Shown piece after piece: positions 4,810 through 61,905 of a stretch of DNA of 64,000 nucleotides. The notes below the pieces were generated by a model. It saw only the letters and a list, made by a program, of their open reading frames with translations. It did not search any database and had not been told where the DNA came from. Made by a program: the position numbers and the translations under genes. This DNA comes from Patescibacteria group bacterium (GTDB lineage: Bacteria; Patescibacteriota; Patescibacteriia; 2-12-FULL-57-11): assembly GCA_004299275.1 (NCBI GenBank), contig SCSU01000066.1, forward strand, positions 14,277 to 78,276, written 5' to 3'. Positions within the stretch are counted from its first letter, which is position 1. Each line of letters begins with the position of its first letter.

Positions 4810-4845
4810 GCAACAAAAAACGCGAAATCTAATTTCGCATTTTTT
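4810..4845. terminator. bidirectional hairpin terminator
   Basis: aaaaaacGCGAAATctaATTTCGCatttttt. Confidence 0.55.
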
Positions 4846-4867
4846 GGTGCCTGGGGTGGGACTCGGG
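4846..4867 (-). repeat. 3' fragment of tRNA-Leu (T-loop to CCA), partial direct duplication
   Basis: tggtgcctggggtgggactcg matches the 3' ~20 nt of the intact tRNA at 4996-5078. Perfect hairpins at 4898-4920 and 4951-4996 lie between the fragment and the intact gene. Confidence 0.7.
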
Positions 4868-4995
4868 TTCGCCTTGGAGCGGCTCACCCCTGGGCTTGCG
4901 CCGGTCCGATACCATCGGACCGGCTCGAGCCCGTTCGACTCCCACATTTCGGGAACACTTCGGAAAGCCTCGCATAGAAGCGAGGCTTTCCGAAG

Positions 4996-5078
4996 TGCCT
5001 GGGGTGGGACTCGAACCCACACGGCCTTGCGGCCACTCAATTTTAAGTCGAGCGCGTATACCATTCCGCCACCCAGGC
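4996..5078 (-). tRNA. tRNA-Leu (anticodon TAA), long variable arm
   Basis: 7-bp acceptor stem gcctggg/cccaggc, anticodon loop cttaaaa, T-arm gggttcgagtccc, no encoded CCA. Confidence 0.85.
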
Positions 5079-5348
5079 AAAGCTTTCTTGCAACATCATC
5101 CTTAAGGTACTTTTCCCCTTGGAAGTCTTGAGGTATTTTTCTCTTCTGATTGCGTCATCTTTTGAAAGGAATACCTCGAAAAAGAGCAGTTTAACCGGCA
5201 GCACCCGTCGCGTCGTCCATGTTTTACCCGCGTTATGTTCCTTGATTCTGCTTTCAAGATTTTCAGTTCGGCCAATATAGAGCCTTCCGTCTCTTAAGCT
5301 TACCAAGACGTAAACCGTGTGCATAAAGGAGATTTTACCCAGCACCAC
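5043..5348 (-). CDS. GIY-YIG nuclease-domain protein (YhbQ/UPF0213-like)
   Basis: YVLVSLRDGRLYIGRTENLESRIKEHNAGK...REKYLK. The last 12 codons and the stop overlap the 5' end of tRNA-Leu, and the TAA stop codon is the tRNA anticodon. Confidence 0.75.
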   Translation of the reverse strand: MVLGKISFMHTVYVLVSLRDGRLYIGRTENLESRIKEHNAGKTWTTRRVLPVKLLFFEVFLSKDDAIRREKYLKTSKGKSTLRMMLQESFAWVAEWYTRST

Positions 5349-5388
5349 GTTGGGTGCTGGGTACCCCGTACCCTACGTGGTACGGGGT

Positions 5389-5471
5389 AAGTCGAGCGCG
5401 TATACCACCTGCCCCGTGCCGTCCCCCGACGTAACATCGGGGGACTGGTTCGGGGTTCCGCCACCCAGGCC
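5389..5471 (-). repeat. 5' fragment of tRNA-Leu (positions 1 to ~35) with a 49-bp insertion bearing a perfect 9-bp-stem hairpin
   Basis: taagtcgagcgcgtatacca[cctgccccgtgccGTCCCCCGAcgtaacaTCGGGGGACtggttcggggt]tccgccacccaggcc. Two further perfect hairpins lie at 5347-5388. Confidence 0.7.
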
Positions 5472-27922: not shown

Positions 27923-29656
27923 CCTAACCGTTAGTTCGGTGCACGCCGCTTGGGAGCCCCCGAGCGGTTTTTCGTTTCTAAGAGCTTCCGCGTTTGGCGC
28001 ATTGTGTTGACGAGACGTTGTCTTTGGCCACTGACGCTAGTGGGTGTCCAAAGTTCAGCGGAACGTGGCGGGACTTTGACAATTTAATGACGAATAAAAA
28101 GGGTAATGAAAAATAGCTCCATAAGCGCGAAAAGGACGTTTTCGTGCTTCAGTGGAGTGAGAGCATACACTAAGGGCAAACGGTGGATGCCTCGACACAA
28201 GAAGCCGATGAAGGACGTAGCAGCCTGCGATAAGCCCCGGGGAAGTGGCAAGCAACTTTTGATCCGGGGATTTCCGAATGGGGAAACCCATCGTGCTGGA
28301 AGAGCACGGTATCGTGCGCTGAATCCATAGGCGTACGAAGGGCACCTGGCGAAGTGAAACATCTCAGTAGCCAGAGGAAGAGAGACAAAAAATGCTGACC
28401 CAACAGACAACCGACAACTTACAACGAACAACCGAAAGGTTGGGAGTTGTTCGTTGATCGTTGTCCGTTGCGTCAGCTGGATTCCCCTAGTAGTGGCGAG
28501 CGAACGGGGACCAGCCGAAACTCCAGGCGTGATTCACCGAACTGACCCCGACTTTACGTCGGGGCGCAGACGGCTGATGAAGGTGTAGGCCGCTGCGCCT
28601 GGAGGGTAACAGGATCGTGACGTCGGACGCCTACTCGTCCGGGTAGAGGAAACCGCAAGGACATGTCTTCCCAAGCAGAATCCGCTGGAAAGCGGAACCA
28701 GAGCGGGTGATAGTCCCGTACGCGAATGGGGACATAACTCTACTGTCGCGAACCCTCAGTACCGCGGGTCTCGTGAAAGCCTGCGGGAAAGCGCCGCGAC
28801 TATGCGGCAAGGCTAAATACTTCTTGTGATCGATAGTGAACCAGTACCGTGAGGGAAAGGTGAAAAGCAGCCCGGAAGGGCGATGAAACAGTATCTGAAA
28901 CCGTTTGCTTACAAGGAGTCAGAGCCGTGCGCAGCACGGCGACTATCAACTACCAACTATCAACAAAACAACGGTCAATAATTCTGTTGCCCGTTGTGTG
29001 TTGTAAGTTGTGTGTTGGTTGTTGCCGCGCTGTGCGCGGTGATGGCGTTCCTATTGAAGAATGAGCCAACGAGTTTGCCGTGCGTCGCTTAGGTTAAGTC
29101 CCTGAGGGGACGAAGCCGGAGCGAAAGCGAGTCTGAATAGGGCGTATGGACTTTAGAGGCGGAGTTGGAGCCGGCGCGCAAGCGTCAAACCTCCAACTTC
29201 TCACCTCTAATTTCCAAAGGTGGCGCACGCAAGACCCGAAACCCGGTGACCTAGCCATGACCAGGGTGAACTCCGCCGAAAGGCGGAGGGAGGCCCGAAC
29301 CCGTAAGCCGTGCAACACTTTGGGATGAGTCGTGGTTAGCGGAGAAATTCCAATCGAACTGGGTGATAGCTGGTTCTCCCCGAAATAGCTTGAGGGCTAG
29401 CGTCGGTTACACCTCGCGAGGGGTAGAGCACTGAAAGGAAAGCGGTGGAGCAATCCTACGCGTTCCTACCAAACTCCGAATACTCGCGGGGCATCCCGGC
29501 AGTCAGAGCATGGGGGCTAAGCTCCATCGCTCAAAAGGGAAACAGCCCAGATCGCAGTCTAAGGCCCCTAAATCTTCCCGACCTAAAGTCGGGACTCCGA
29601 CACCGCAAGGTCGTCGGAGCGGTTAAGTGTCAAAGGTTGTGGAGTAACTTAAACAA

Positions 29657-29687
<31 letters not shown>

Positions 29688-30780
29688 TAAAGAAAGCGTA
29701 ACAGCTCACTGGTCAAGTCGCTCTGCGCCGAAAATATACCGGGGCTAAAACCGAGTGCCGAAGACGCGACTCCGACGTAAGTCGGAGGGTAGGGGAGCAT
29801 TCTGTCCGCGCTGAAGCCGCGCCGTAAGACGCGGTGGAGCGAACAGAAGGGAGAATGTTGGCATAAGTAGCAAAAAGACGGGTGAGAACCCCGTCCGCCG
29901 TAAACCCAAGGTTTCCTGGGCAACGCAAATCGTCCCAGGGTTAGTCGGTCCTAAGGCGAGGCCAAGAGGCGTAGCCGATGGATGAGCAGGTTAATATTCC
30001 TGCACTACGGCCGTGTCAGGCGCGAGAGGACGCGTCGCAATATCTTCCGAGTTCGAAGGCTACACTTCCGGTGTCGCAAGCCGGCCGCGAGGCAAATCCC
30101 GCGGCGCAAAGCAAGCGATGCCGGCTAGTCTGCGAGTAATCGCGGGCAAGGGAAGAAAATGTGGCGCCTAGAAAAGTCTCGCGATAACGGCATGGCCGCA
30201 CCCGTACCGGAAACCGACACAGGTGGGTGGGCATAAGTGTGCCCAGGCGTACGAGAGAAACATCGTTCAGGAACTCGGCAATACAGCGGCCGTAACTTCG
30301 GGATAAGGCCTACCCCGACGTAAAGTCGGGGTCGCAGCGAAAGACGCTTAGCGACTGTTTACCAAAAACACAGGTCCCTGCGAAGTCGAAAGACAATGTA
30401 TAGGGGCTGATGCCTGGCCAGTGTCAGAACGTTACGGGGAGAGGTCATGGCCGACGCAAGTCGGCCGGCAGCCTTGAACCTAAGCGCTGATGAACGCCGG
30501 CGATAACTATAATCGTCCTAAGGTTCCCTGAATCACTGGCAAGTGGTTCCGGGTAGGACTGGGACGATTATCGAATGGTGAACAAGCAAGCTACCTTGCT
30601 CTGCAGCAATGCAGAGAAAAAGTCCGTTAATGGCTAAATACCTACGTTTCCGAAGAACTAGGTAGGGAAGTCCGATTTTTCGGACCCCGAGAGACCATAC
30701 GCCATGCTCCCGACATACCGTCGGGATGAAGACATGGTCCTTCGTTTAAGGAATCGGAGAGCGAAATTCCTTGTCGGGTG

Positions 30781-30811
<31 letters not shown>

Positions 30812-31050
30812 GAGCGACTGTCTTAACGATGTACTCGGCGAAATTGCAAGATGAGTGAAGATGCTCATTACCCGTGGTTAGACGAAAAGACCCCGTGAAG
30901 CTTTACTACAACTTGCTATTGGCTGCATGCTTCGCCTGTTCAGCGTAGGTGGGAGGTCCGACGAAAGTCGGACCAACAATGAGACACCACCCTTGCGCTG
31001 CGTGCAGTCTCATCTCCGGCCGTGATCCGGCTGGGGAGACAGTAGCTGGT

Positions 31051-31096
<46 letters not shown>

Positions 31097-31166
31097 TTTA
31101 CCAAGGTCGGCTTAGCTCCGATGGAAACGGAGCTGGACGTGCAAGCGCACAAGCCGGCTTTACTGC

Positions 31167-31198
<32 letters not shown>

Positions 31199-31268
31199 AA
31201 GCTAGTGATCCGACCGTTCGAAGTAGGACGGCGGAAGCTCATCGGATAAAAGCTACTCCGGGGATAAC

Positions 31269-32119
31269 CCCAAAAGGGTTGTTGTCCCGATCCGACGGTA
31301 ACGTCGGATCATGAAAACGGCTAATAACGGTGGAGTCCCGCCAGGCGGGATAATACCGTGGGAAGTTCTTCGTCTCATCATCATAATTATGATTGAACGC
31401 GAACGAAATATCGTGATTGGTTGCGTACTTGGCGACGGTTTTCTCCAATCGACCGGAAGACATAACGCGCGGCTGCGGCTCGAGCATTCCATCAAACAGA
31501 AGGAATATCTCGAGTGGAAGTGGCGCGAACTGGCGCGCTATATGCAAGATCGCCCCAAGCGCCTGGTTCGTTGGAATCCGGTTTGGAAAAAACGTTACGA
31601 GTATCTGCGATGCCAATCGCACAGTTCGCCGCAATTCGGCAAGCTTCGGGAATTATTCTATCGCGATCAGACGCGGCAGGTTCCCGATGAGATAGCCAAG
31701 TTGCTGCGCTCGCCGCTCTCGTTGGCGGTTTGGTTTATGGATGACGGATATTACTATACGCGAGATCGCGTAGCGTATATCTATCTTCCTAAACTATCCG
31801 CCGATGACATTCGGCGTTTGTGTCAAGCATTAAATGATGATTTTGATCTTCATCCGAAGGTCGAACGCAAGAAAACTGGGGCACTAAACCTCAAATTTTC
31901 TGCGGCAGAAACGAAAAAATTAATTAAGATAATCGCCCCGCATATAATCAAAAGTATGCGGTACAAAATCGGCGAAGAACCCCGTATCGACTGAGTCCTA
32001 TGGACGAGGTGGCGCAGAGGAGGGAATATCCGCGCCACAATATGCCGTACTCCTTGTCTGGCGAGACAAGGATGAAGATATAGTCAGTGCCCTTAGTAAT
32101 AAGGGAGTAAAACATGAAC
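31269..32119 (+). mobile_element. group I intron 1 in the 23S peptidyl-transferase region (after GGGGATAAC), carrying a LAGLIDADG ORF
   Basis: The exon sequence GATAAC|AGGCTGATC is split by ~850 nt. Confidence 0.75.
31311..31994 (+). CDS. LAGLIDADG homing endonuclease (intron-encoded)
   Basis: Two LAGLIDADG-type motifs, [11 protein letters not shown] and [10 protein letters not shown]. Confidence 0.85.
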
Positions 32120-32200
32120 AGGCTGATCGGGTCCAAGAGTCCACATCGACGACCCGGTTTGGCACCTCGATGTCGGCCCGTCGCATCCTGGGGCTGGAGA

Positions 32201-32937
32201 AAACATACCTTCTCTCCTGCGAGGAAACTCGCGGGTAATAAACAAGCTCAAACGGTAGAGACCACACCATACGACCTTCCTGTTTCGGAGGTCCCAGGTC
32301 TGCTATAGTGCAGATGTATGACGGTTAATGCCGTAGGAAAGGAATGCGTTGAAGTCGATCGAGCATATCTTGCCGGTCTCATTGACGGTGATGGTGCCAT
32401 CATGGCTATCATCGAACCGCACAGTGAGAAGAAATTTCGTTTCCGTGTTCGGATCGAAGTAAAAGTGACTCAAAAGCATGAGGAAGACGTCTCGTTTTTG
32501 CCGAAACTTTTGGGTTGCGGATTGATTCGAACAAATAGGACAACGTATGAGTGGATTACACGAGACCAGCAACATGTCTTGCGTATCCTCTCAATGGTTC
32601 GTCCTTATACGAGAATGAAAAATCGGCAGATGGAAATAGCAATGAAGATCATCCGTACTCCGATACGGACTCAGGGTGATCTTTTGCGCGTTGCTCGATT
32701 GGCAGATGCATTGGCGCGTTTCAACGTGCGATCCAACAATCGCCGTAGGAACTATGCGACAATGATCGAAACGCATTTCTCCTCTAACGACTGATTGGTA
32801 AACGTTGGGTTTACCATGAGATATGCCCCGCCATGGCGGGGGTATCATACGGCTTGCACCTGTGTTGTGTCCGGTGACGGATATCAATATGGTGATGGAA
32901 TAGTCTGATACTCGCGGAAACGCGAGATAACAAAAAT
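32201..32937 (+). mobile_element. group I intron 2 in the 23S (after CCTGGGGCTGgag), carrying a LAGLIDADG ORF
   Basis: The exon sequence GGGGCTG..AGGTCCCAAGGGT is split by ~740 nt. Confidence 0.75.
32318..32794 (+). CDS. LAGLIDADG homing endonuclease (intron-encoded, single-motif type)
   Basis: YLAGLIDGDG motif. Confidence 0.85.
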   Translation: MTVNAVGKECVEVDRAYLAGLIDGDGAIMAIIEPHSEKKFRFRVRIEVKVTQKHEEDVSFLPKLLGCGLIRTNRTTYEWITRDQQHVLRILSMVRPYTRMKNRQMEIAMKIIRTPIRTQGDLLRVARLADALARFNVRSNNRRRNYATMIETHFSSND

Positions 32938-32965
32938 GAGGTCCCAAGGGTTTGGCTGTTCGCCA

Positions 32966-33288
<323 letters not shown>

Positions 33289-33630
33289 TCGGTCTCCTAT
33301 CTACCACGGGCGCAGAAACTTGCGGGGGCGCTCTCTCAGTACGAGAGGACCGGAGAGCACGAACCTCTTGTGTACCAGCTGTCCTGCCAAGGGCATCGCT
33401 GGGTAGCGAAGTTCGGAACGGATAAACGCTGAAAGCATCTAAGCGTGAAGCCGTCCCCAAGATTAGGTTTCATTACGAGACCCCAGAGAGATGATCTGGT
33501 TGATCGGCGGCAGGTGTAAGGCCCGCAAGGGTTTGAGCCGAGCCGTACGAATCGGTCCAGTGTGCTCCTCTAACCACTGAAGCACGAAGCCGTTCTTCAT
33601 TACCTATTTATTCGTCAATTTCAAAAGACA

Positions 33631-33662
33631 GAGATCCGATCTCCCATAGGAGATCGGATCTC
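33631..33662. repeat. GGAGATCC palindromic hairpin (GAGATCCGATCTCC-cata-GGAGATCGGATCTC) in the 23S-5S spacer
   Basis: Perfect 14-bp stem. Confidence 0.75.
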
Positions 33663-33687
33663 GATGTCGCTTTGGCCGCAGCATTCT

Positions 33688-33808
33688 CGGTGCCTCGAGC
33701 GAGGTGGTCACACCCGTTCCCATCCCGAACACGGCAGTTAAGCACCTCAGCGCCGATGGTACTTGGCGTAAACTAACGCCCGGGAGAGTAGGCCGGTGCC
33801 GAGTATAT
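33688..33808 (+). rRNA. rrf: 5S rRNA
   Basis: ggtggtcacacccgttcccatcccgaacacggcagttaagc...cccgggagagtaggccggtgccgag. Ends are approximate. Confidence 0.8.
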
Positions 33809-39809: not shown

Positions 39810-39886
39810 GGGCGTGTAGCTCAGTTGGTTAGAGCGTCACACTGATAATGTGAAGGTCGGTGGTTCGACTCCACCCACGCCCACCA
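39810..39886 (+). tRNA. tRNA-Ile (anticodon GAT)
   Basis: gggcgtgtagctcagttggttagagc...ctGATaa...ggttcgactcc..cacgccca+CCA. Confidence 0.9.
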
Positions 39887-43984: not shown

Positions 43985-45560
<1,576 letters not shown>

Positions 45561-45675
45561 AGAGAAAACCCCTCTACCCTCGCGGGTTTCGGGGCTCAAT
45601 CAATGAGTCATTACCCAACTTGCCTGCCATAGGCAGGCGTTGTTTTTGTTGTTGGAGTTTCACTCGAAAATTATA

Positions 45676-56360: not shown

Positions 56361-56484
56361 CCCGTTGCAAAACTCGCGATCTGTCGGCTTGCGTGGCCCC
56401 GCCACCCCCTCAACGTACGTTTTAAGTACGCCTCGGGGGCTGGCTACCCCGCGTGCCGACATCTCATCAAGTTTTGCAACGGTC
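56361..56484. repeat. ~125-bp imperfect palindromic element CCGTTGCAAAACT...AGTTTTGCAACGG
   Basis: agcccgttgcaaaactcgcgatctgtcggc...gccgacatctcatcaagttttgcaacggtctg; second family member at 51565-51735. Confidence 0.55.
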
Positions 56485-56892
56485 TGCGTGCCCTCTTGAC
56501 AGTAAAAACACGCTGTGATAACTTATCGGGTCGCACTGCTTAAGGTTTGGCTTTCCCAAACCGCTCCGACGTGAGGTCGGGGCATAAGCGACTCCTCATG
56601 TCCCCGCCTTGGCGGGGTTGCGGACGAGCGCTTTATTTATGCCGAGAGACCAGCGCTCACGACAAGCATGGAGGCTCGTAACAGGTTTACTCTGGCCTCG
56701 GCTAGATTTCTCCTGCTTCGAACCTTCTTGAGCGCTGTACGTTCGGCAAAAAGAGAGCTCTCCTTTGCGCCAAAAAATCCCCCGCGGGGGATTTTTGGTT
56801 TTTTACCACCTTCGCCGAAAGCCACGGGTGAATACCCGTGGCTGCATGTGGAAAGGATAACCCACCGGTAGCCTAAGCGAAGGCGGGTGTGC

Positions 56893-60704: not shown

Positions 60705-60926
60705 ATGAAACAGCAATTTACCGCGATTTATGAAAAGCGGGGCAAGTGGTATTTGGGCTGGGTGGAAGAGATCCCCGGCGTTAATACGCAGGGGAAAACA
60801 TTGAAAGAAGCAAAAGAAAATCTCAAAGAAGCCCTGGAGCTTATTTTGGAAGTCAACCGCGTAATGTCCCGTAAAGAAATATCCGGCCGGGTCATCCGGG
60901 AGCCTGTAGTTCTCGCGCACACATGA
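60705..60926 (+). CDS. hicB: HicB-family antitoxin
   Basis: IPGVNTQGKTLKEAKENLKEALELIL, typical of the HicB N-terminal domain; overlaps the following gene by 4 nt. Confidence 0.6.
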   Translation: MKQQFTAIYEKRGKWYLGWVEEIPGVNTQGKTLKEAKENLKEALELILEVNRVMSRKEISGRVIREPVVLAHT

Positions 60927-61108
60927 AACGGAAAAGCCTCATTCGACACATCCTCAAAGCGGGATGTGTTTTCATACGTGAGGGAGCGAACCATAGCGTA
61001 TTTTTTAATCCGTCGCTTCGACGAACATCAACCGTGCCGCGTCACGCTGAAGTTGACGATTTCCTGGCCAAGAAAATTTGCGAAGATTTGGGTATTTCGC
61101 CACCGTGA
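60923..61108 (+). CDS. hicA: HicA-family toxin (mRNA interferase)
   Basis: 61 aa with GCVFIREGANHSVFFNP...VPRH.E.....KICEDLGI. Confidence 0.6.
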   Translation: MKRKSLIRHILKAGCVFIREGANHSVFFNPSLRRTSTVPRHAEVDDFLAKKICEDLGISPP

Positions 61109-61194
61109 CAAATTTTGGCGTTTTGATTGTCGGCTGAGGACCGAAAATTGACCTGGAGAATTTTTTAGAGTACCATCGTGCCGCCGCGATGCAT

Positions 61195-61216
61195 GGCCCC
61201 ATCGTCTAACGGCTAG
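61195..61216 (+). repeat. 5' fragment of tRNA-Glu (acceptor to D-loop), followed by two perfect hairpins
   Basis: ggccccatcgtctaacggctag equals the first 22 nt of the intact tRNA-Glu at 61539. Then CCCGGCgaCCCTGGCaaaGCCAGGGgGCCGGG and TCCGGCctGCGGCttctGCCGCggtaGCCGGA. Confidence 0.7.
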
Positions 61217-61280
61217 CCCGGCGACCCTGGCAAAGCCAGGGGCCGGGTCCGGCCTGCGGCTTCTGCCGCGGTAGCCGGAG

Positions 61281-61553
61281 ATGCCACATACCATGTATTA
61301 CGTTTACATTCTCGAACGCTTGAAAGACGCTCGATGGTACATTGGCAGTACAAAAAATGTTGAGGAGCGACTCACCTATCACAATGCCGGGAAAATCACG
61401 TCAACGCGTCCCCATCGGCCTTATCGGCTTGTCTATCTCGAATCGTTCGAGAACAAAACTCAAGCGCTTCTCCGTGAGAAACAAATCAAAAAATCGGGTA
61501 TCATCCGGAAAGCGATTAAATCGCGAGTTGAAAAATACGGCCCCATCGTCTAA
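61281..61553 (+). CDS. GIY-YIG nuclease-domain protein (YhbQ/UPF0213-like), second copy
   Basis: YYVYILERLKDARWYIGSTKNVEERLTYHNAGK...REKQIK. The stop codon TAA lies in the D-loop of the downstream tRNA-Glu (15-nt overlap). Confidence 0.75.
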   Translation: MPHTMYYVYILERLKDARWYIGSTKNVEERLTYHNAGKITSTRPHRPYRLVYLESFENKTQALLREKQIKKSGIIRKAIKSRVEKYGPIV

Positions 61554-61610
61554 CGGCTAGGACGCCACGCTTTCAATGTGGCAATGGGGGTTCGATTCCC
61601 CCTGGGGCTA
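61539..61610 (+). tRNA. tRNA-Glu (anticodon TTC)
   Basis: ggcccca..gtctaacggctaggac..ccacgcTTTCaatgtgg..gggggttcgattccccc..tggggct+a. Confidence 0.85.
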
Positions 61611-61648
61611 AACACAAACCCGTCACACAAGGTGACGGGTTTGTGTTT
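61611..61648 (+). terminator. perfect 16-bp-stem hairpin immediately after tRNA-Glu
   Basis: AACACAAACCCGTCACacaagGTGACGGGTTTGTGTT; another perfect hairpin lies at 61716-61749. Confidence 0.55.
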
Positions 61649-61779
61649 AGCTCTGAGGTGGAAGGGGAATCGAACGGGCAGAAGCGAGACAATCCCGCCA
61701 TAGGCGGGAGCAGACGAGCGTCGGCAACGCCAATGGCTTGGCGTTGCCGCTGCCCAGGACAAGGAGCGTAAGCGACGCG

Positions 61780-61797
61780 TAATTCCCCCTGGGGTTA
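61780..61797 (+). repeat. 3' fragment of tRNA-Glu (T-loop to acceptor)
   Basis: taattccccctggggtta versus cgattccccctggggcta in the intact gene. Confidence 0.55.
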
Positions 61798-61833
61798 ATA
61801 ATTTCCTCCTCACTTTTGTGGGGAGAAAATTTT

Positions 61834-61905
61834 TATTCTCGCGGGAATCGAACCCGCCTTCGCTAATTCAGCCGTCGTAGCTATAGGCTACCATGGCGGA
61901 GTTGG
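61834..61905 (-). pseudogene. tRNA-like remnant (T-arm and D-arm present, acceptor stem cannot close)
   Basis: gcggg-aatcgaa-cccgc (reverse complement of a T-arm) and gtagctataggctac D-arm-like segment on the - strand; no 7-bp acceptor pairing found. Confidence 0.3.

What the first reader, a model, noticed from the sequence alone, without database searches (positions are those of the whole stretch)
61195..61905. Second copy of the tRNA-linked GIY-YIG module, at tRNA-Glu
The components are a 22-nt copy of the tRNA-Glu 5' end (61195-61216), two nested perfect hairpins, a paralogous GIY-YIG ORF (61281..61553) whose TAA stop falls in the D-loop of the intact tRNA-Glu(TTC) (61539-61610), a perfect 16-bp-stem hairpin, a second 12-bp-stem hairpin (61716-61749), a 3' tRNA-Glu fragment (61780-61797), and finally a tRNA-like remnant on the opposite strand (61834-61905). 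Two loci with different tRNAs but the same ordered parts indicate a repeatable process rather than random decay. The HicAB pair directly upstream (60705-61108) could be an addiction cargo of the same element.
Basis: seen in the sequence. Interest (0 to 1): 0.85.

Follow-up and report, generated by a model that had tools for sequence, protein, structure and literature searches.

The report
Nuclease gene nested in tRNA gene
A tiny nuclease gene sits inside a broken copy of a tRNA gene beside an intact spare copy of that tRNA, and the same layout, with characteristic DNA palindromes, recurs next to many different tRNAs in many bacterial phyla, which points to a widespread selfish element that I could not find described.

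Summary
Window 61195-61905 has an intact tRNA-Glu(UUC). Its first 22 nt are repeated exactly 344 nt upstream and its last 17 nt (94%) 187 nt downstream. An 86-90 aa GIY-YIG ORF runs into the tRNA, and perfect GC palindromes flank it.

The protein is neither a syntenic YhbQ housekeeping gene nor a two-domain Seg-type homing endonuclease. It is a bare Slx1/UPF0213-type nuclease domain from a very large family.

In 80 related loci from a dozen or more phyla:
- 67 lie within 100 nt of a tRNA gene, all co-oriented, next to at least 12 isotypes.
- Most carry pieces of the same tRNA on the other side of the ORF.
- Several have tandem arrays or truncated copies.

The tRNA pieces are interrupted by Watson-Crick palindromes with conserved YCCCG...CGGGR ends. 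These sit at the centre of the anticodon loop, in the D region, or replace whole arms. Palindrome type co-varies with nuclease subfamily.

Best reading: a selfish, homing-like cassette lives inside a tRNA gene, keeps a working tRNA copy beside it, and is probably expressed from the tRNA promoter. How it moves, and what the palindromes do, is inferred only. HicAB is not part of it. I found no published description.

The parts
61148..61176 (+). Promoter-like site (TTGACC-17-TACCAT), ending 19 nt before the 5' tRNA piece. It is the candidate original tRNA-Glu promoter, now driving the whole module.
   Evidence: This is a single consensus match, with 0.7 expected by chance, so it is weak evidence.
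61195..61216 (+). Orphan 5' piece of tRNA-Glu (tRNA nt 1-22), 100% identical to the intact gene.
   Evidence: (D1).
61217..61279 (.). Double palindrome of two tandem hairpins. The first is CCCGGC..[CCCTGG-CAAAG-CCAGGG]GCCGGG. The second is TCCGGC..[GCGGC-TTCT-GCCGC]..GCCGGA.
   Evidence: Sequence; fold at -49.8 kcal/mol. The architecture matches the double hairpins of related loci.
61281..61553 (+). GIY-YIG ORF of 90 aa, or 86 aa from the ATG at 61293 as annotated by NCBI. It is a bare Slx1/UPF0213-type nuclease domain. Its last 5 codons (the final 4 residues, GPIV, plus the stop) are read from the tRNA-Glu 5' end.
61539..61610 (+). Intact tRNA-Glu(UUC), with no encoded CCA.
61607..61651 (.). 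Perfect palindrome of 20 bp that starts in the last bases of the tRNA. Its GC core is followed by TTTGTGTTT, so it resembles a terminator. It is the centre of a longer imperfect palindrome that reaches the T-arm on both sides.
   Evidence: I1, I5; sequence.
61664..61675 (-). Inverted copy of the tRNA-Glu T-loop and T-stem (12 nt exact).
   Evidence: (I5). The same feature occurs in locus 1 (13 of 14 nt by my reading), in L018 (a 9-nt near-palindromic T-loop motif read) and in L070 (the only BLAST-detected case).
61693..61709 (.). Canonical family palindrome TCCCGCC-ATA-GGCGGGA.
   Evidence: This motif clusters within 400 nt of GIY-YIG genes in related loci (86 of 89 hits).
61722..61749 (.). 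Perfect hairpin of 12 bp, CGGCAACGCCAA-TGGC-TTGGCGTTGCCG.
   Evidence: I6.
61782..61798 (+). Orphan 3' piece of tRNA-Glu (T-loop 3' side, T-stem and acceptor strand), 16 of 17 nt identical.
   Evidence: (D2).
61806..61835 (+). Terminator-like hairpin plus T-rich tail directly after the 3' piece. It is the candidate original tRNA-Glu terminator.
61834..61905 (-). Fragment on the opposite strand that contains a T-arm (GCGGG-TTCGATT-CCCGC). It is not a callable tRNA, and its relation to the module is unclear.
   Evidence: I2; only a weak antisense-tRNA-like hit; no ARAGORN call even at ps75.
4822..5470 (-). First copy of the module, read on the minus strand. Parts in order: orphan tRNA-Leu(taa) nt 1-15 (5470-5456); 48-nt palindromic insert (5455-5408); nt 16-35 (5407-5388); double palindrome at the anticodon 35/36 position (5387-5336); GIY-YIG ORF (5324-5043); intact tRNA-Leu(taa) (5078-4995); 16-bp hairpin (4995-4958); inverted T-arm copy; orphan 3' piece (4865-4847); terminator (4838-4822).
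   Evidence: Relatives L101, L103 and L105 have the same layout.

Best explanation
The region is one member of a large family of selfish nuclease cassettes that live in tRNA genes.

Shown:
- A minimal GIY-YIG nuclease gene (about 80-90 aa, Slx1/UPF0213 type, no DNA-binding domain) lies co-oriented with an intact tRNA gene and directly against it.
- Orphan pieces of that same tRNA lie outside it.
- In this window, a promoter-like site precedes the 5' orphan piece and a terminator-like hairpin follows the 3' orphan piece.
- Together these make the module look like an older tRNA-Glu gene split by a ~565-bp insert made of palindromes, nuclease ORF, complete replacement tRNA and hairpin debris.
- The family is patchy across many phyla, multi-copy, associated with many tRNA isotypes, forms tandem arrays and leaves truncated copies.
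- The orphan tRNA pieces carry Watson-Crick palindromes with conserved YCCCG...CGGGR ends. These sit at the centre of the anticodon loop (35/36), in the D region, or replace whole arms.
- The palindrome type follows the nuclease subfamily, not the host genome.

Inferred:
- The nuclease cuts tRNA genes, or hairpin or cruciform DNA formed by them.
- Repair copies the cassette in, in the manner of homing.
- The cell survives because an intact tRNA copy is regenerated or carried alongside.
- The ORF is transcribed from the tRNA promoter and translated only from unprocessed precursor, because its stop codon lies inside the tRNA.
- The palindromes are cognate elements of the nuclease, either recognition sites or small non-autonomous mobile units. 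They persist only in redundant tRNA copies and in tolerant rRNA helices.
For: Nuclease identity:
- Pfam GIY-YIG.
- A profile of the family hits UPF0213 structures 1zg2 (2e-15) and 1ywl, then Slx1.
- The catalytic Tyr/Tyr/Arg/His/Glu columns are invariant.

tRNA linkage:
- 67 of 80 related loci have a tRNA within 100 nt, and 67 of 67 are on the same strand.
- At least 12 isotypes are involved.
- The C-terminal residues are read out of the tRNA in several lineages (GPIV, PSSSLA).

Duplicated tRNA pieces, mostly 100% identical, occur in most loci.

Selfish hallmarks:
- Tandem arrays in L028 (5 copies), L038, L081, L083, L009 and L076.
- Frameshifted or truncated copies in L028, L034 and L038.
- The position varies within the conserved CPR Thr-Tyr-Thr-Trp tRNA cluster.
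- Many contigs end at the element.
- The family is very large: 10,187 cluster representatives at E<=1e-10.
- Lineages group by tRNA type across phyla in a weakly resolved tree.

Split ancestral gene:
- Promoter-like site at 61148-61176 and terminator-like site at 61806-61825.
- Terminator directly after the 3' piece in locus 1.
- In L101 the orphan 5' half differs from the intact tRNA-Leu at about 9 of 36 nt, so it is not a fresh local duplication.

Palindromes:
- 86 of 89 CCCGCC..GGCGGG hits in 303 kb lie within 400 nt of the ORF.
- 36 mapped inserts mostly begin YCCCG and end CGGGR.
- Eight anticodon-loop insertions in Glu, Thr, Tyr, Ser and Leu genes all sit at the centre of the loop. Seven are at 35/36.
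- Two near-identical double hairpins lie in two different tRNA pseudogenes of one genome, L014.
- A 33-37-nt double hairpin is shared by four distant genomes.
- Stems have 455 Watson-Crick pairs against 10 G-U pairs.
- The CCCnnACC type is seen in all 4 type-2 tRNA-Leu loci (3 by the scan, L103 by eye) and in 0 of 83 type-1 loci. The CCGCC type is found in 38 of 83 type-1 loci.
Against: - No cleavage data exist. A bare 80-aa GIY-YIG domain has no obvious means of sequence-specific recognition.
- No empty-site allele was recovered for either window locus, so insertion is inferred from architecture and from variable positions in relatives.
- The intact tRNA beside the ORF should itself be a target of a tRNA-cutting enzyme, and self-immunity is unexplained.
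- Most orphan pieces are 100% identical to the neighbouring tRNA. This fits local duplication or gene conversion as well as it fits imported cargo.
- The palindrome-nuclease link could be indirect. Similar palindromes occur in this genome's 23S rRNA gene and elsewhere, far from any GIY-YIG gene.
- The promoter and terminator matches are single consensus hits.
- MAG binning errors may inflate the apparent phylum range.
Confidence: 0.6

Rival explanations
1. The palindromes are an independent class of GC-rich palindromic insertion elements, or IVS-like expansions, that target loops of structured-RNA genes. The GIY-YIG cassette only creates redundant tRNA copies in which they are tolerated, and the nuclease does not act on them.
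For: - YCCCG-stem hairpins are 15-fold over-represented in the window: 17 found against 1.1 expected.
- Five lie inside the 23S rRNA gene, including a 44-nt double hairpin at 29575-29618.
- Others lie at 32826 and 56602, far from any GIY-YIG gene.
- CPR rRNA genes are known to carry short uncharacterised insertions at stem-loop tips (PMC11270868).
Against: - The palindrome sequence type follows the adjacent nuclease subfamily within one genome and across genomes.
- The same stem motif accompanies the nuclease in phyla as distant as Bacteroidota, Omnitrophota and Patescibacteria.
- Slx1-type enzymes are structure-specific for branched and hairpin DNA (established knowledge of the family).
Confidence: 0.3
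2. The nuclease is a domesticated host factor of tRNA metabolism, for example precursor processing or repair. It is co-transcribed with tRNAs, and the orphan tRNA pieces and hairpins are its leader and processing signals.
For: - Orientation is strictly the same as the tRNA, and the ORF overlaps the tRNA.
- The literature notes a fusion of a bacterial Slx1-like domain to a TrmH-type tRNA methylase (PMC1564403).
Against: - The distribution is multi-copy and patchy, and involves many different tRNAs.
- Tandem arrays and frameshifted or truncated copies occur.
- DNA-level rearrangements of the tRNA genes are present.
- The stems are pure Watson-Crick palindromes rather than RNA-type helices.
Confidence: 0.1
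3. The insert behaves like an intron. The orphan 5' and 3' pieces are exons of a still-functional tRNA, and the palindromes or the whole insert are removed at the RNA level.
For: - Insertions sit precisely in the anticodon loop.
- The exon-like pieces are 100% conserved.
- tRNA-Leu(UAA) is a classical host of group I introns (established knowledge).
Against: - There is no group I or II ribozyme signal.
- In this window the orphan pieces lack tRNA nt 23-56.
- In many loci whole arms are replaced or the pieces are truncated.
- An intact copy is present beside the orphan pieces in most loci that carry them.
Confidence: 0.04
4. This is a toxin plus RNA-antitoxin or decoy system. The nuclease attacks tRNA, and the hairpin-stiffened tRNA mimic neutralises it.
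For: - A small nuclease lies next to a structured, tRNA-derived non-coding element.
- Some pseudo-tRNAs keep a cloverleaf outline, with arms swapped for hairpins of equal length (L022, L028).
Against: - No RNase activity is known for this clade.
- The pseudo-tRNA part varies greatly in extent, from 12 nt to full length.
- The DNA rearrangement signatures are not explained.
- There are no matches to defence or TA models.
Confidence: 0.04
5. These are remains of an integrase-mediated island that integrated into the tRNA gene, with att-site duplications, followed by decay.
For: Partial tRNA duplications flanking inserted DNA are the classical signature of integrated elements (PMC9897764).
Against: - No integrase is present in the window module or in any of the called-gene tables of related loci that I inspected; the 80 genome loci were not scanned for integrases.
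- The insert is only about 0.3-0.6 kb.
- The 5' end of the tRNA is duplicated upstream, which is the reverse of the usual geometry.
- The same tiny layout recurs 80 or more times.
Confidence: 0.02

Closest known systems
Phage T4 SegB, a free-standing GIY-YIG homing endonuclease in the tRNA gene cluster (PMC2330249; PMC13096335)
   Same: Both are GIY-YIG nuclease genes lying free between or next to tRNA genes. SegB is selfishly inherited through cleavage of tRNA-gene DNA. It is also reported to drive segmental amplification of a tRNA locus, which parallels the tandem GIY-tRNA arrays seen here.
   Different: - SegB is a two-domain enzyme of the homing-endonuclease clade and is phage-borne.
- The proteins here are bare 80-90 aa Slx1/UPF0213-type domains.
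- They are chromosomal, absent from the phage and plasmid collections and nearly absent from IMG/VR.
- They overlap the tRNA and come with split tRNA copies and conserved palindromes.
Bacterial UPF0213 / YhbQ / Slx1-like stand-alone GIY-YIG proteins (PDB 1zg2, 1ywl; PMC1564403)
   Same: These are the closest sequence relatives, and they have the same minimal domain without accessory domains.
   Different: The literature treats that family as vertically inherited repair-type proteins. The clade here is multi-copy, patchy, linked to tRNA genes and associated with rearrangements.
Integrase-mediated genomic islands and prophages in tRNA genes (PMC9897764 and references therein)
   Same: Both target tRNA genes, restore a complete tRNA by an element-borne copy of the displaced part, and leave orphan tRNA fragments.
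   Different: Those elements are 9 kb or larger and encode a tyrosine integrase. They duplicate the 3' part at the far end and recombine at a defined core site. The insert here is 0.3-0.6 kb, has no integrase, and leaves both 5' and 3' orphan pieces.
Non-intron insertion sequences encoding GIY-YIG proteins, and short ORF-less insertions, in CPR rRNA genes (PMC11270868)
   Same: They occur in the same organisms. GIY-YIG ORFs there are carried in insertions that are neither group I nor group II introns. Insertions sit at tips or bases of stem-loops of a structured-RNA gene. This window's 23S gene carries the same kind of palindromes.
   Different: That study covers rRNA only. It gives no tRNA link, no gene duplication and no palindrome family. 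Whether the rRNA GIY-YIG proteins belong to the same clade was not tested here.
Palindrome-based non-autonomous elements with a dedicated enzyme (REP/RAYT, IS200/IS605 PATEs). This comparison rests on my own knowledge.
   Same: Both involve short hairpin or double-hairpin DNA units with conserved stem ends, dispersed and nested, whose sequence type matches an associated small enzyme.
   Different: Those systems use HUH tyrosine transposases. A hydrolytic GIY-YIG nuclease cannot carry out strand transfer on its own. Targeting of tRNA loops is not a feature of those systems.
Mobile endonuclease ORF in Allomyces mitochondrial atp6 that carries a replacement copy of the gene's 3' end (Paquin et al. 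1994, recalled from memory and not checked here)
   Same: The principle is the same: an endonuclease ORF inserts into an essential gene and brings a duplicate of the displaced part, leaving a pseudogene fragment behind. GC-rich double-hairpin elements are also known from that mitochondrial genome.
   Different: That case is a mitochondrial protein-coding gene with a different endonuclease lineage. It is a lead only.

Membership tests
GIY-YIG nuclease superfamily | Significant match to the GIY-YIG catalytic domain | tested here: met
   PF01541 at E 3.7e-16 for the ORF of this locus and 2e-16 for the locus 1 ORF.
GIY-YIG nuclease superfamily | Conserved catalytic residues: Tyr of GIY, Tyr of YIG, Arg, and the metal-binding Glu | tested here: met
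   Y5, Y16, G18, R26, H30, E50, R61 and E62 are invariant in the 14-sequence alignment.
Bacterial Slx1-like / UPF0213 (YhbQ) clade | Minimal stand-alone domain that is closest in sequence to UPF0213 and Slx1, not to the UvrC or I-TevI clade | tested here: met
   The profile hits 1zg2 at 2.2e-15, 1ywl at 8.4e-11 and Slx1 at about 3e-5, but I-TevI only at 7e-3.
Bacterial Slx1-like / UPF0213 (YhbQ) clade | Single-copy, vertically inherited housekeeping gene in conserved synteny | tested here: not met
   - There are two divergent copies in 64 kb.
- Tandem arrays and truncated copies occur.
- Neighbours differ in every locus apart from a tRNA.
Free-standing GIY-YIG homing endonucleases (Seg / I-Tev type) | N-terminal nuclease domain tethered to a C-terminal DNA-binding domain | tested here: not met
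   The proteins have 80-93 aa and consist of the nuclease domain only. TIGR01453 matches only the first ~35 residues and scores below its cut-off.
Free-standing GIY-YIG homing endonucleases (Seg / I-Tev type) | Patchy occurrence at or near a conserved target gene, with variable presence among relatives | tested here: inconclusive
   Positions vary within the conserved CPR tRNA cluster, and many isotypes and phyla are involved. No empty allele from a close relative was recovered.
Free-standing GIY-YIG homing endonucleases (Seg / I-Tev type) | Site-specific double-strand cleavage of the allele that lacks the gene, followed by gene conversion | not testable with these tools
   This needs enzyme assays or genetic crosses.
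Integrase-mediated tRNA-integrating islands | Integrase gene inside the element | tested here: not met
   The insert is about 565 bp, with a single 86-90 aa ORF. The called-gene tables of the related loci I inspected list no integrase; the 80 genome loci were not scanned for integrases.
Integrase-mediated tRNA-integrating islands | A complete tRNA at one end and a direct repeat of its 3' part at the far end | tested here: not met
   The 5' 22 nt are repeated upstream and the 3' 17 nt downstream, with the intact gene in the middle.
Group I intron in a tRNA anticodon loop | Group I ribozyme core | tested here: not met
   No Intron_gpI hit in either module at E<=10 or in 20 related loci. The model does detect a true intron elsewhere in the window, at 32887-33227.
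Palindromic non-autonomous elements with a cognate enzyme (REP/RAYT, IS200/605 PATE) | HUH / Y1 transposase associated with the palindromes | tested here: not met
   The only gene consistently adjacent is the GIY-YIG ORF.
Known anti-phage defence systems (PADLOC) | Full-length match to a defence protein model | tested here: not met
   Only short, weak matches to the GIY-YIG portion of larger proteins.

The most novel reading that the evidence does not exclude
The minimal Slx1-type GIY-YIG nuclease and the YCCCG...CGGGR palindromes together form a new kind of structure-targeting mobile system.
- The enzyme recognises hairpin or cruciform DNA extruded by tRNA and rRNA genes, not a sequence.
- It cuts at loop centres or stem bases.
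- It thereby mediates both insertion of its own ORF into tRNA genes, with regeneration of a working tRNA, and the insertion or swapping of cognate palindromes into loops and arms.
- In effect this would be a nuclease-driven hairpin 'cassette exchange' with no transposase or integrase.
Probability: 0.25. Interest if true: 0.92.

Novelty: new variant of a known kind. Interest (0 to 1): 0.8.

Why it matters
- If the reading is right, a large share of the poorly understood stand-alone GIY-YIG (UPF0213/Slx1-like) genes in uncultured bacteria, especially CPR, Omnitrophota and Bacteroidota, are selfish residents of tRNA genes and not repair enzymes.
- It shows a third way for a parasite to live inside an essential RNA gene. 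It neither splices out nor integrates with an integrase. It keeps a spare copy of the gene beside itself.
- It explains many tRNA fragments, hairpin-substituted 'tRNAs' that gene finders miscall, tandem tRNA arrays, and contig breaks at tRNA loci in metagenome assemblies.
- The precise placement of Watson-Crick palindromes at the centre of the anticodon loop in unrelated tRNAs points to recognition of DNA structure. That is directly testable with an 86-aa protein and could yield a very small structure-specific nuclease tool.
- It may also connect to the unexplained short insertions in CPR rRNA genes.

Tried and rejected
- Empty-site search. I scanned metagenome contigs with the PolX gene that abuts locus 1. 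This gave 11 relatives at 40-55% identity, none with a tRNA downstream, so there is no usable synteny.
- Other contigs carrying the exact protein are the same strain (100% and 99.8% identical) and show no polymorphism.
- Phage or plasmid origin. There is no tblastn match in 50,697 phage or 72,556 plasmid records, and only 2 weak hits in IMG/VR.
- Known RNA families. Nothing but tRNA is found on the modules or on 20 related loci, with no ribozyme or intron signal.
- The opposite-strand remnant at 61834-61905 is not called as a tRNA even at relaxed ARAGORN thresholds.
- HicAB as cargo. It is absent from all related loci.
- Defence-system and phage protein libraries give no meaningful match. NCBIfam gives only sub-threshold matches to the N-terminal third of the intron-endonuclease model.
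- Whether the tRNA travels with the nuclease. tRNAs of the same anticodon differ between hosts, so they are mostly resident sequences. L101 is an exception at the orphan half.
- Literature. Six full-text searches found no description of tRNA-linked minimal GIY-YIG cassettes or of these palindromes. The library lacks most subscription journals, so prior description cannot be excluded.
- The first alignment (A1) was too diverse for the locus scan and was replaced by A2.
Full report
**1. What is in the window**

The window comes from a Patescibacteria (CPR) genome. The exact protein of the finding is deposited as a 'GIY-YIG nuclease family protein [Patescibacteria group bacterium]' on a 93-kb contig.

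- An intact tRNA-Glu(UUC) lies at 61539-61610.
- An exact copy of its first 22 nt lies at 61195-61216, and a 16-of-17 copy of its 3' end at 61782-61798.
- An ORF at 61281-61553 (or from 61293) is a GIY-YIG domain. Its stop codon is made of tRNA positions 13-15.
- Two tandem GC hairpins lie between the 5' copy and the ORF.
- A 20-bp perfect palindrome starts in the last bases of the tRNA, and a 12-bp hairpin follows further on.

Only the 'tRNA-like remnant' on the opposite strand is weak. It has a clean T-arm, but neither Rfam nor ARAGORN at relaxed settings calls it.

**2.

In both loci the outermost parts look like the ends of one older tRNA gene.
- In locus 2 a promoter-like site (61148-61176) ends 19 nt before the orphan 5' piece. 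A terminator-like hairpin (61806-61825) follows the orphan 3' piece directly.
- In locus 1 the orphan 3' piece is followed directly by a terminator.

Between the outer pieces lies an insert of about 565 bp in locus 2 and about 530 bp in locus 1. The order is the same in both:
1. a double palindrome;
2. the nuclease ORF;
3. a complete tRNA;
4. a long hairpin;
5. an inverted copy of the T-arm;
6. more hairpins.

The tRNA T-arm, the long hairpin and the inverted T-arm together form one long imperfect palindrome. A comparable inverted T-arm or T-loop piece is seen in L070 (BLAST-detected) and, by eye, in locus 1 and L018.

The promoter and terminator calls are single consensus matches, so I treat them as suggestive only.

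**3. What the protein is**

Both proteins are bare GIY-YIG domains of 86-93 aa. A profile of the family matches the following, in order:
- the UPF0213 structures 1zg2 (2e-15) and 1ywl (8e-11);
- eukaryotic Slx1 (about 3e-5);
- I-TevI, only marginally (7e-3).

The catalytic Tyr, Tyr, Arg, His and Glu columns are invariant. There is no room for the DNA-binding domain that defines Seg/Tev homing endonucleases, and the NCBIfam intron-endonuclease model matches only the first third, below its cut-off.

The family is very large. An exhaustive profile search finds 10,187 representatives of 50%-identity clusters at E<=1e-10. Not all of these need be tRNA-linked.

**4. The linkage to tRNA genes is general**

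A scan of one genome per species returned more than 460 confirmed relatives, of which the best 80 were kept. They come from:
- Omnitrophota, Planctomycetota and many CPR lineages, including Saccharibacteria;
- Bacteroidota, Ignavibacteriota and Chlorobiota;
- Gammaproteobacteria and Alphaproteobacteria;
- Acidobacteriota, Nitrospirota, Lentisphaeria, Fibrobacterota and Zixibacteria.

These are MAG labels, and some may be binning errors.

In 67 of the 80 loci a tRNA gene lies within 100 nt of the ORF, and in all 67 it is on the same strand. The tRNAs are Ser, Pro, Glu, Tyr, Thr, Asp, Met, Lys, Gln, Cys, Ala and Leu (a Phe call in L031 is a miscalled tRNA-Tyr pseudogene).

The ORF typically ends within a few bases of a tRNA (or pseudo-tRNA) 5' end, or inside it. 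As a result the last residues (GPIV, PSSSLA) are simply the translated tRNA.

Most loci have further pieces of the same tRNA on the other side of the ORF, usually 100% identical. More sensitive alignment finds diverged pieces as well.

Further features:
- Tandem arrays of ORF plus tRNA-like unit occur in L028 (five copies), L038, L081, L083, L009 and L076.
- Frameshifted or truncated ORF copies occur in L028, L034 and L038.
- In the conserved CPR cluster tRNA-Thr/Tyr/Thr/Trp, the ORF sits before tRNA-Tyr in some genomes, after it in others, and before tRNA-Thr in another.
- Many contigs end at the element, as expected for a repeat.
- The family is absent from 50,697 phage and 72,556 plasmid records and nearly absent from IMG/VR.

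A neighbour-joining tree of this short protein is weakly resolved, but it groups several lineages by tRNA type across phyla. tRNAs of the same anticodon differ between hosts. So the nuclease mostly sits beside resident tRNAs and does not drag one universal tRNA around.

**5. The palindromes are a family with defined positions**

The orphan tRNA pieces are not randomly decayed. Inserts break them into blocks that remain identical to the intact tRNA. The inserts begin with (C/T)CCCG(CC) and end with the complement (GG)CGGG(G/A).

In 303 kb of related loci, 86 of 89 CCCGCC...GGCGGG hairpins lie within 400 nt of the nuclease gene, and 51 loci have at least one.

Clean insertions fall into two groups:
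- **Centre of the anticodon loop.** Seven are between positions 35 and 36 (tRNA-Glu in L003 and L024, Thr in L014, Ser in L033, L039 and L066, Leu in locus 1). One is at 34/35 (Tyr in L014).
- **Position 12/13 of the D stem.** This is seen in L003, L005, L014, L032 and L071.

Other cases replace a whole D, anticodon or T arm with a hairpin of about the same length (L001, L010, L022, L028, L076, L081, L083).

Evidence that these units are copied between sites:
- A minimal 33-37-nt double hairpin, CCACCGCC-loop-GGCGGGG-TCCCGC(C)-loop-GGCGGGA, is shared by four distant genomes.
- One genome (L014) has two near-identical double hairpins in two different tRNA pseudogenes, both in the centre of the anticodon loop (35/36 and 34/35) and both at a TG|TAAA step.
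- Larger inserts are nested hairpins within hairpin loops (L003).

The stems are almost purely Watson-Crick, with 455 such pairs against 10 G-U. This points to DNA palindromes, not RNA helices. No Rfam family covers them.

**6. Palindrome type follows nuclease subfamily**

The locus 1 protein belongs to a second subfamily. Three relatives that I fetched (L101, L103, L105) have exactly the locus 1 layout:
1. tRNA-Leu(UAA) nt 1-35;
2. a double palindrome of the type CCCnnACC...GGTnnGGG;
3. AAAATC, which resumes the tRNA sequence;
4. the ORF;
5. the intact tRNA-Leu(UAA).

That palindrome type is seen in all four type-2 Leu loci (the scan detects it in three; in L103 it lies inside the over-long gene call and was read by eye) and in none of 83 type-1 loci. 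The CCGCC...GGCGG type is upstream of the ORF in 38 of 83 type-1 loci and 1 of 7 type-2 loci.

Both types coexist in this one genome, each beside its own nuclease, so the host is not the determinant. Shared descent of each module remains a confounder.

In L101 the orphan 5' half differs from the intact tRNA at about 9 of 36 positions, including the acceptor strand. So at least there the two copies are not a fresh local duplication.

**7. Interpretation**

The data fit a selfish cassette that resides in tRNA genes.

Shown:
- the architecture;
- the strict co-orientation and abutment with a tRNA;
- the duplicated and split tRNA copies;
- the arrays and decayed copies;
- the breadth of hosts and tRNA types;
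- the palindrome family, its positions and its covariation with the nuclease subfamily.

Inferred:
- The nuclease cuts tRNA-gene DNA. Given its Slx1 kinship and the loop-centre positions in unrelated tRNAs, it probably recognises hairpin or cruciform structure, not sequence.
- Repair copies the cassette in.
- An intact tRNA copy beside the ORF keeps the host viable.
- The ORF is expressed from the tRNA promoter, and only from unprocessed precursor, because RNase P cleavage would remove its stop codon.

The role of the palindromes is the least certain part. They may be cognate recognition sites or small non-autonomous mobile units. Alternatively they are an independent class of palindromic insertions that survive only in redundant tRNA copies.

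The independent-class view has support in this window. It has 17 YCCCG-stem hairpins against about 1 expected. Five are inside the 23S rRNA gene, including a 44-nt double hairpin at 29575-29618 that is an insertion relative to E. coli 23S.

**8. What it is not**

- **Not an integrase-type island.** There is no integrase, the insert is about 0.5 kb, and the repeat geometry is wrong (compare PMC9897764).
- **Not a group I intron.** There is no ribozyme signal, although the model detects a true intron elsewhere in the window.
- **Not a known defence or phage protein**.
- **Not linked to HicAB.** The HicB/HicA pair at 60705-61108 is genuine but occurs in none of the related loci.

**9. Comparison with the literature**

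The nearest described case is T4 SegB. It is a GIY-YIG homing endonuclease in the phage tRNA cluster that cleaves tRNA-gene DNA (PMC2330249), and it was recently reported to drive segmental amplification of a tRNA locus (PMC13096335).

A survey of CPR rRNA insertions noted GIY-YIG ORFs in insertions that are not introns, and short uncharacterised insertions at stem-loop tips. It did not cover tRNA genes or palindromes (PMC11270868).

The GIY-YIG phylogenomic survey treats bacterial Slx1-like proteins as ancestral, vertically inherited repair-type enzymes (PMC1564403).

Six full-text searches found nothing on tRNA-linked minimal GIY-YIG cassettes. The library misses most subscription journals, so I rate the finding as a new variant of a known kind (free-standing nuclease-driven selfish elements), not as categorically new.

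**10. Limits**

- There is no biochemical evidence.
- No empty-site allele was found for either window locus.
- How the adjacent intact tRNA escapes cleavage is unexplained.
- The promoter and terminator evidence is weak.
- Taxon labels of MAG contigs may be wrong.
- The tRNA-fragment detection favours pieces that are still nearly identical.

Noticed in passing
window 28160-33804: The 23S rRNA gene is heavily interrupted.
- Alignment to E. coli 23S shows insertions of 44-235 nt at about six sites, and about 2 kb near the 3' end.
- Two LAGLIDADG-type ORFs lie at 31311-31994 and 32318-32794.
- A group I intron is called at 32887-33227.
- The 5S gene follows at 33686-33804.
   Followed up: partly
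window 28546, 29575-29618, 30313, 30708, 31336 (inside 23S); 32826; 43784; 46551; 55716; 56602: Short perfect hairpins with YCCCG...CGGGR stems number 17 in the window, against about 1.1 in shuffles. The recurrent form is YCCCGAC-N5-GTCGGGR. Five lie in the 23S gene, including a 44-nt double hairpin that is an insertion relative to E. coli. The style matches the palindromes in the tRNA modules.
   Followed up: partly
window 56361-56890: A 530-nt gene-free stretch has a promoter-like TTGACA...TGATAAC and a strong terminator (about 56775-56812). It contains a CCCCGCC-TT-GGCGGGG hairpin. It looks like an unannotated structured RNA gene, but no Rfam family matches at E<=1.
   Followed up: partly
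window 28160-33804 (+), 43989-45566 (-), 39810-39886 (+): The rRNA genes are unlinked. 23S and 5S are on one strand, 16S is 10 kb away on the other strand, and tRNA-Ile lies between them.
   Followed up: no
window 60705-61108: A genuine HicB (UPF0150-like) and HicA pair with a 4-nt overlap lies directly upstream of the module. It is not found in any related GIY-YIG locus.
   Followed up: yes
window 61583-61680 and 5020-4915 (minus strand); L018 2290-2400: The intact tRNA's T-arm, the hairpin after the tRNA, and an inverted T-arm copy form one long imperfect palindrome. In it, only the acceptor-strand part has diverged. It recurs in at least three unrelated loci. Its origin is unexplained; fold-back synthesis is one possibility.
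   Followed up: partly
L028 1500-3050; L030; L060: In Bacteroidales arrays the repeated 'tRNA-Pro' units keep the anticodon and T arms, but the D-arm is replaced by a CCCCGCC-loop-GGCGGGG hairpin. ARAGORN still calls them tRNA-Pro, whereas Rfam does not. They are likely to be miscounted as tRNA genes in annotations.
   Followed up: partly
L018 2519-2752; L024 2380-2634: Some tRNA genes are flanked by two different GIY-YIG subfamilies: type 1 upstream and type 2 downstream of the same tRNA.
   Followed up: no
L048, L056 (labelled Gammaproteobacteria): The tRNA-Ser(GGA) next to the nuclease has the D-arm sequence typical of the CPR loci (GTCGCATAGTGG...). This suggests either mis-binned contigs or transfer of the tRNA together with the cassette.
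   Followed up: no
L005 2838-2927: A c-di-GMP-I riboswitch lies about 500 nt downstream of the cassette in an Omnitrophota contig. It is probably unrelated.
   Followed up: no
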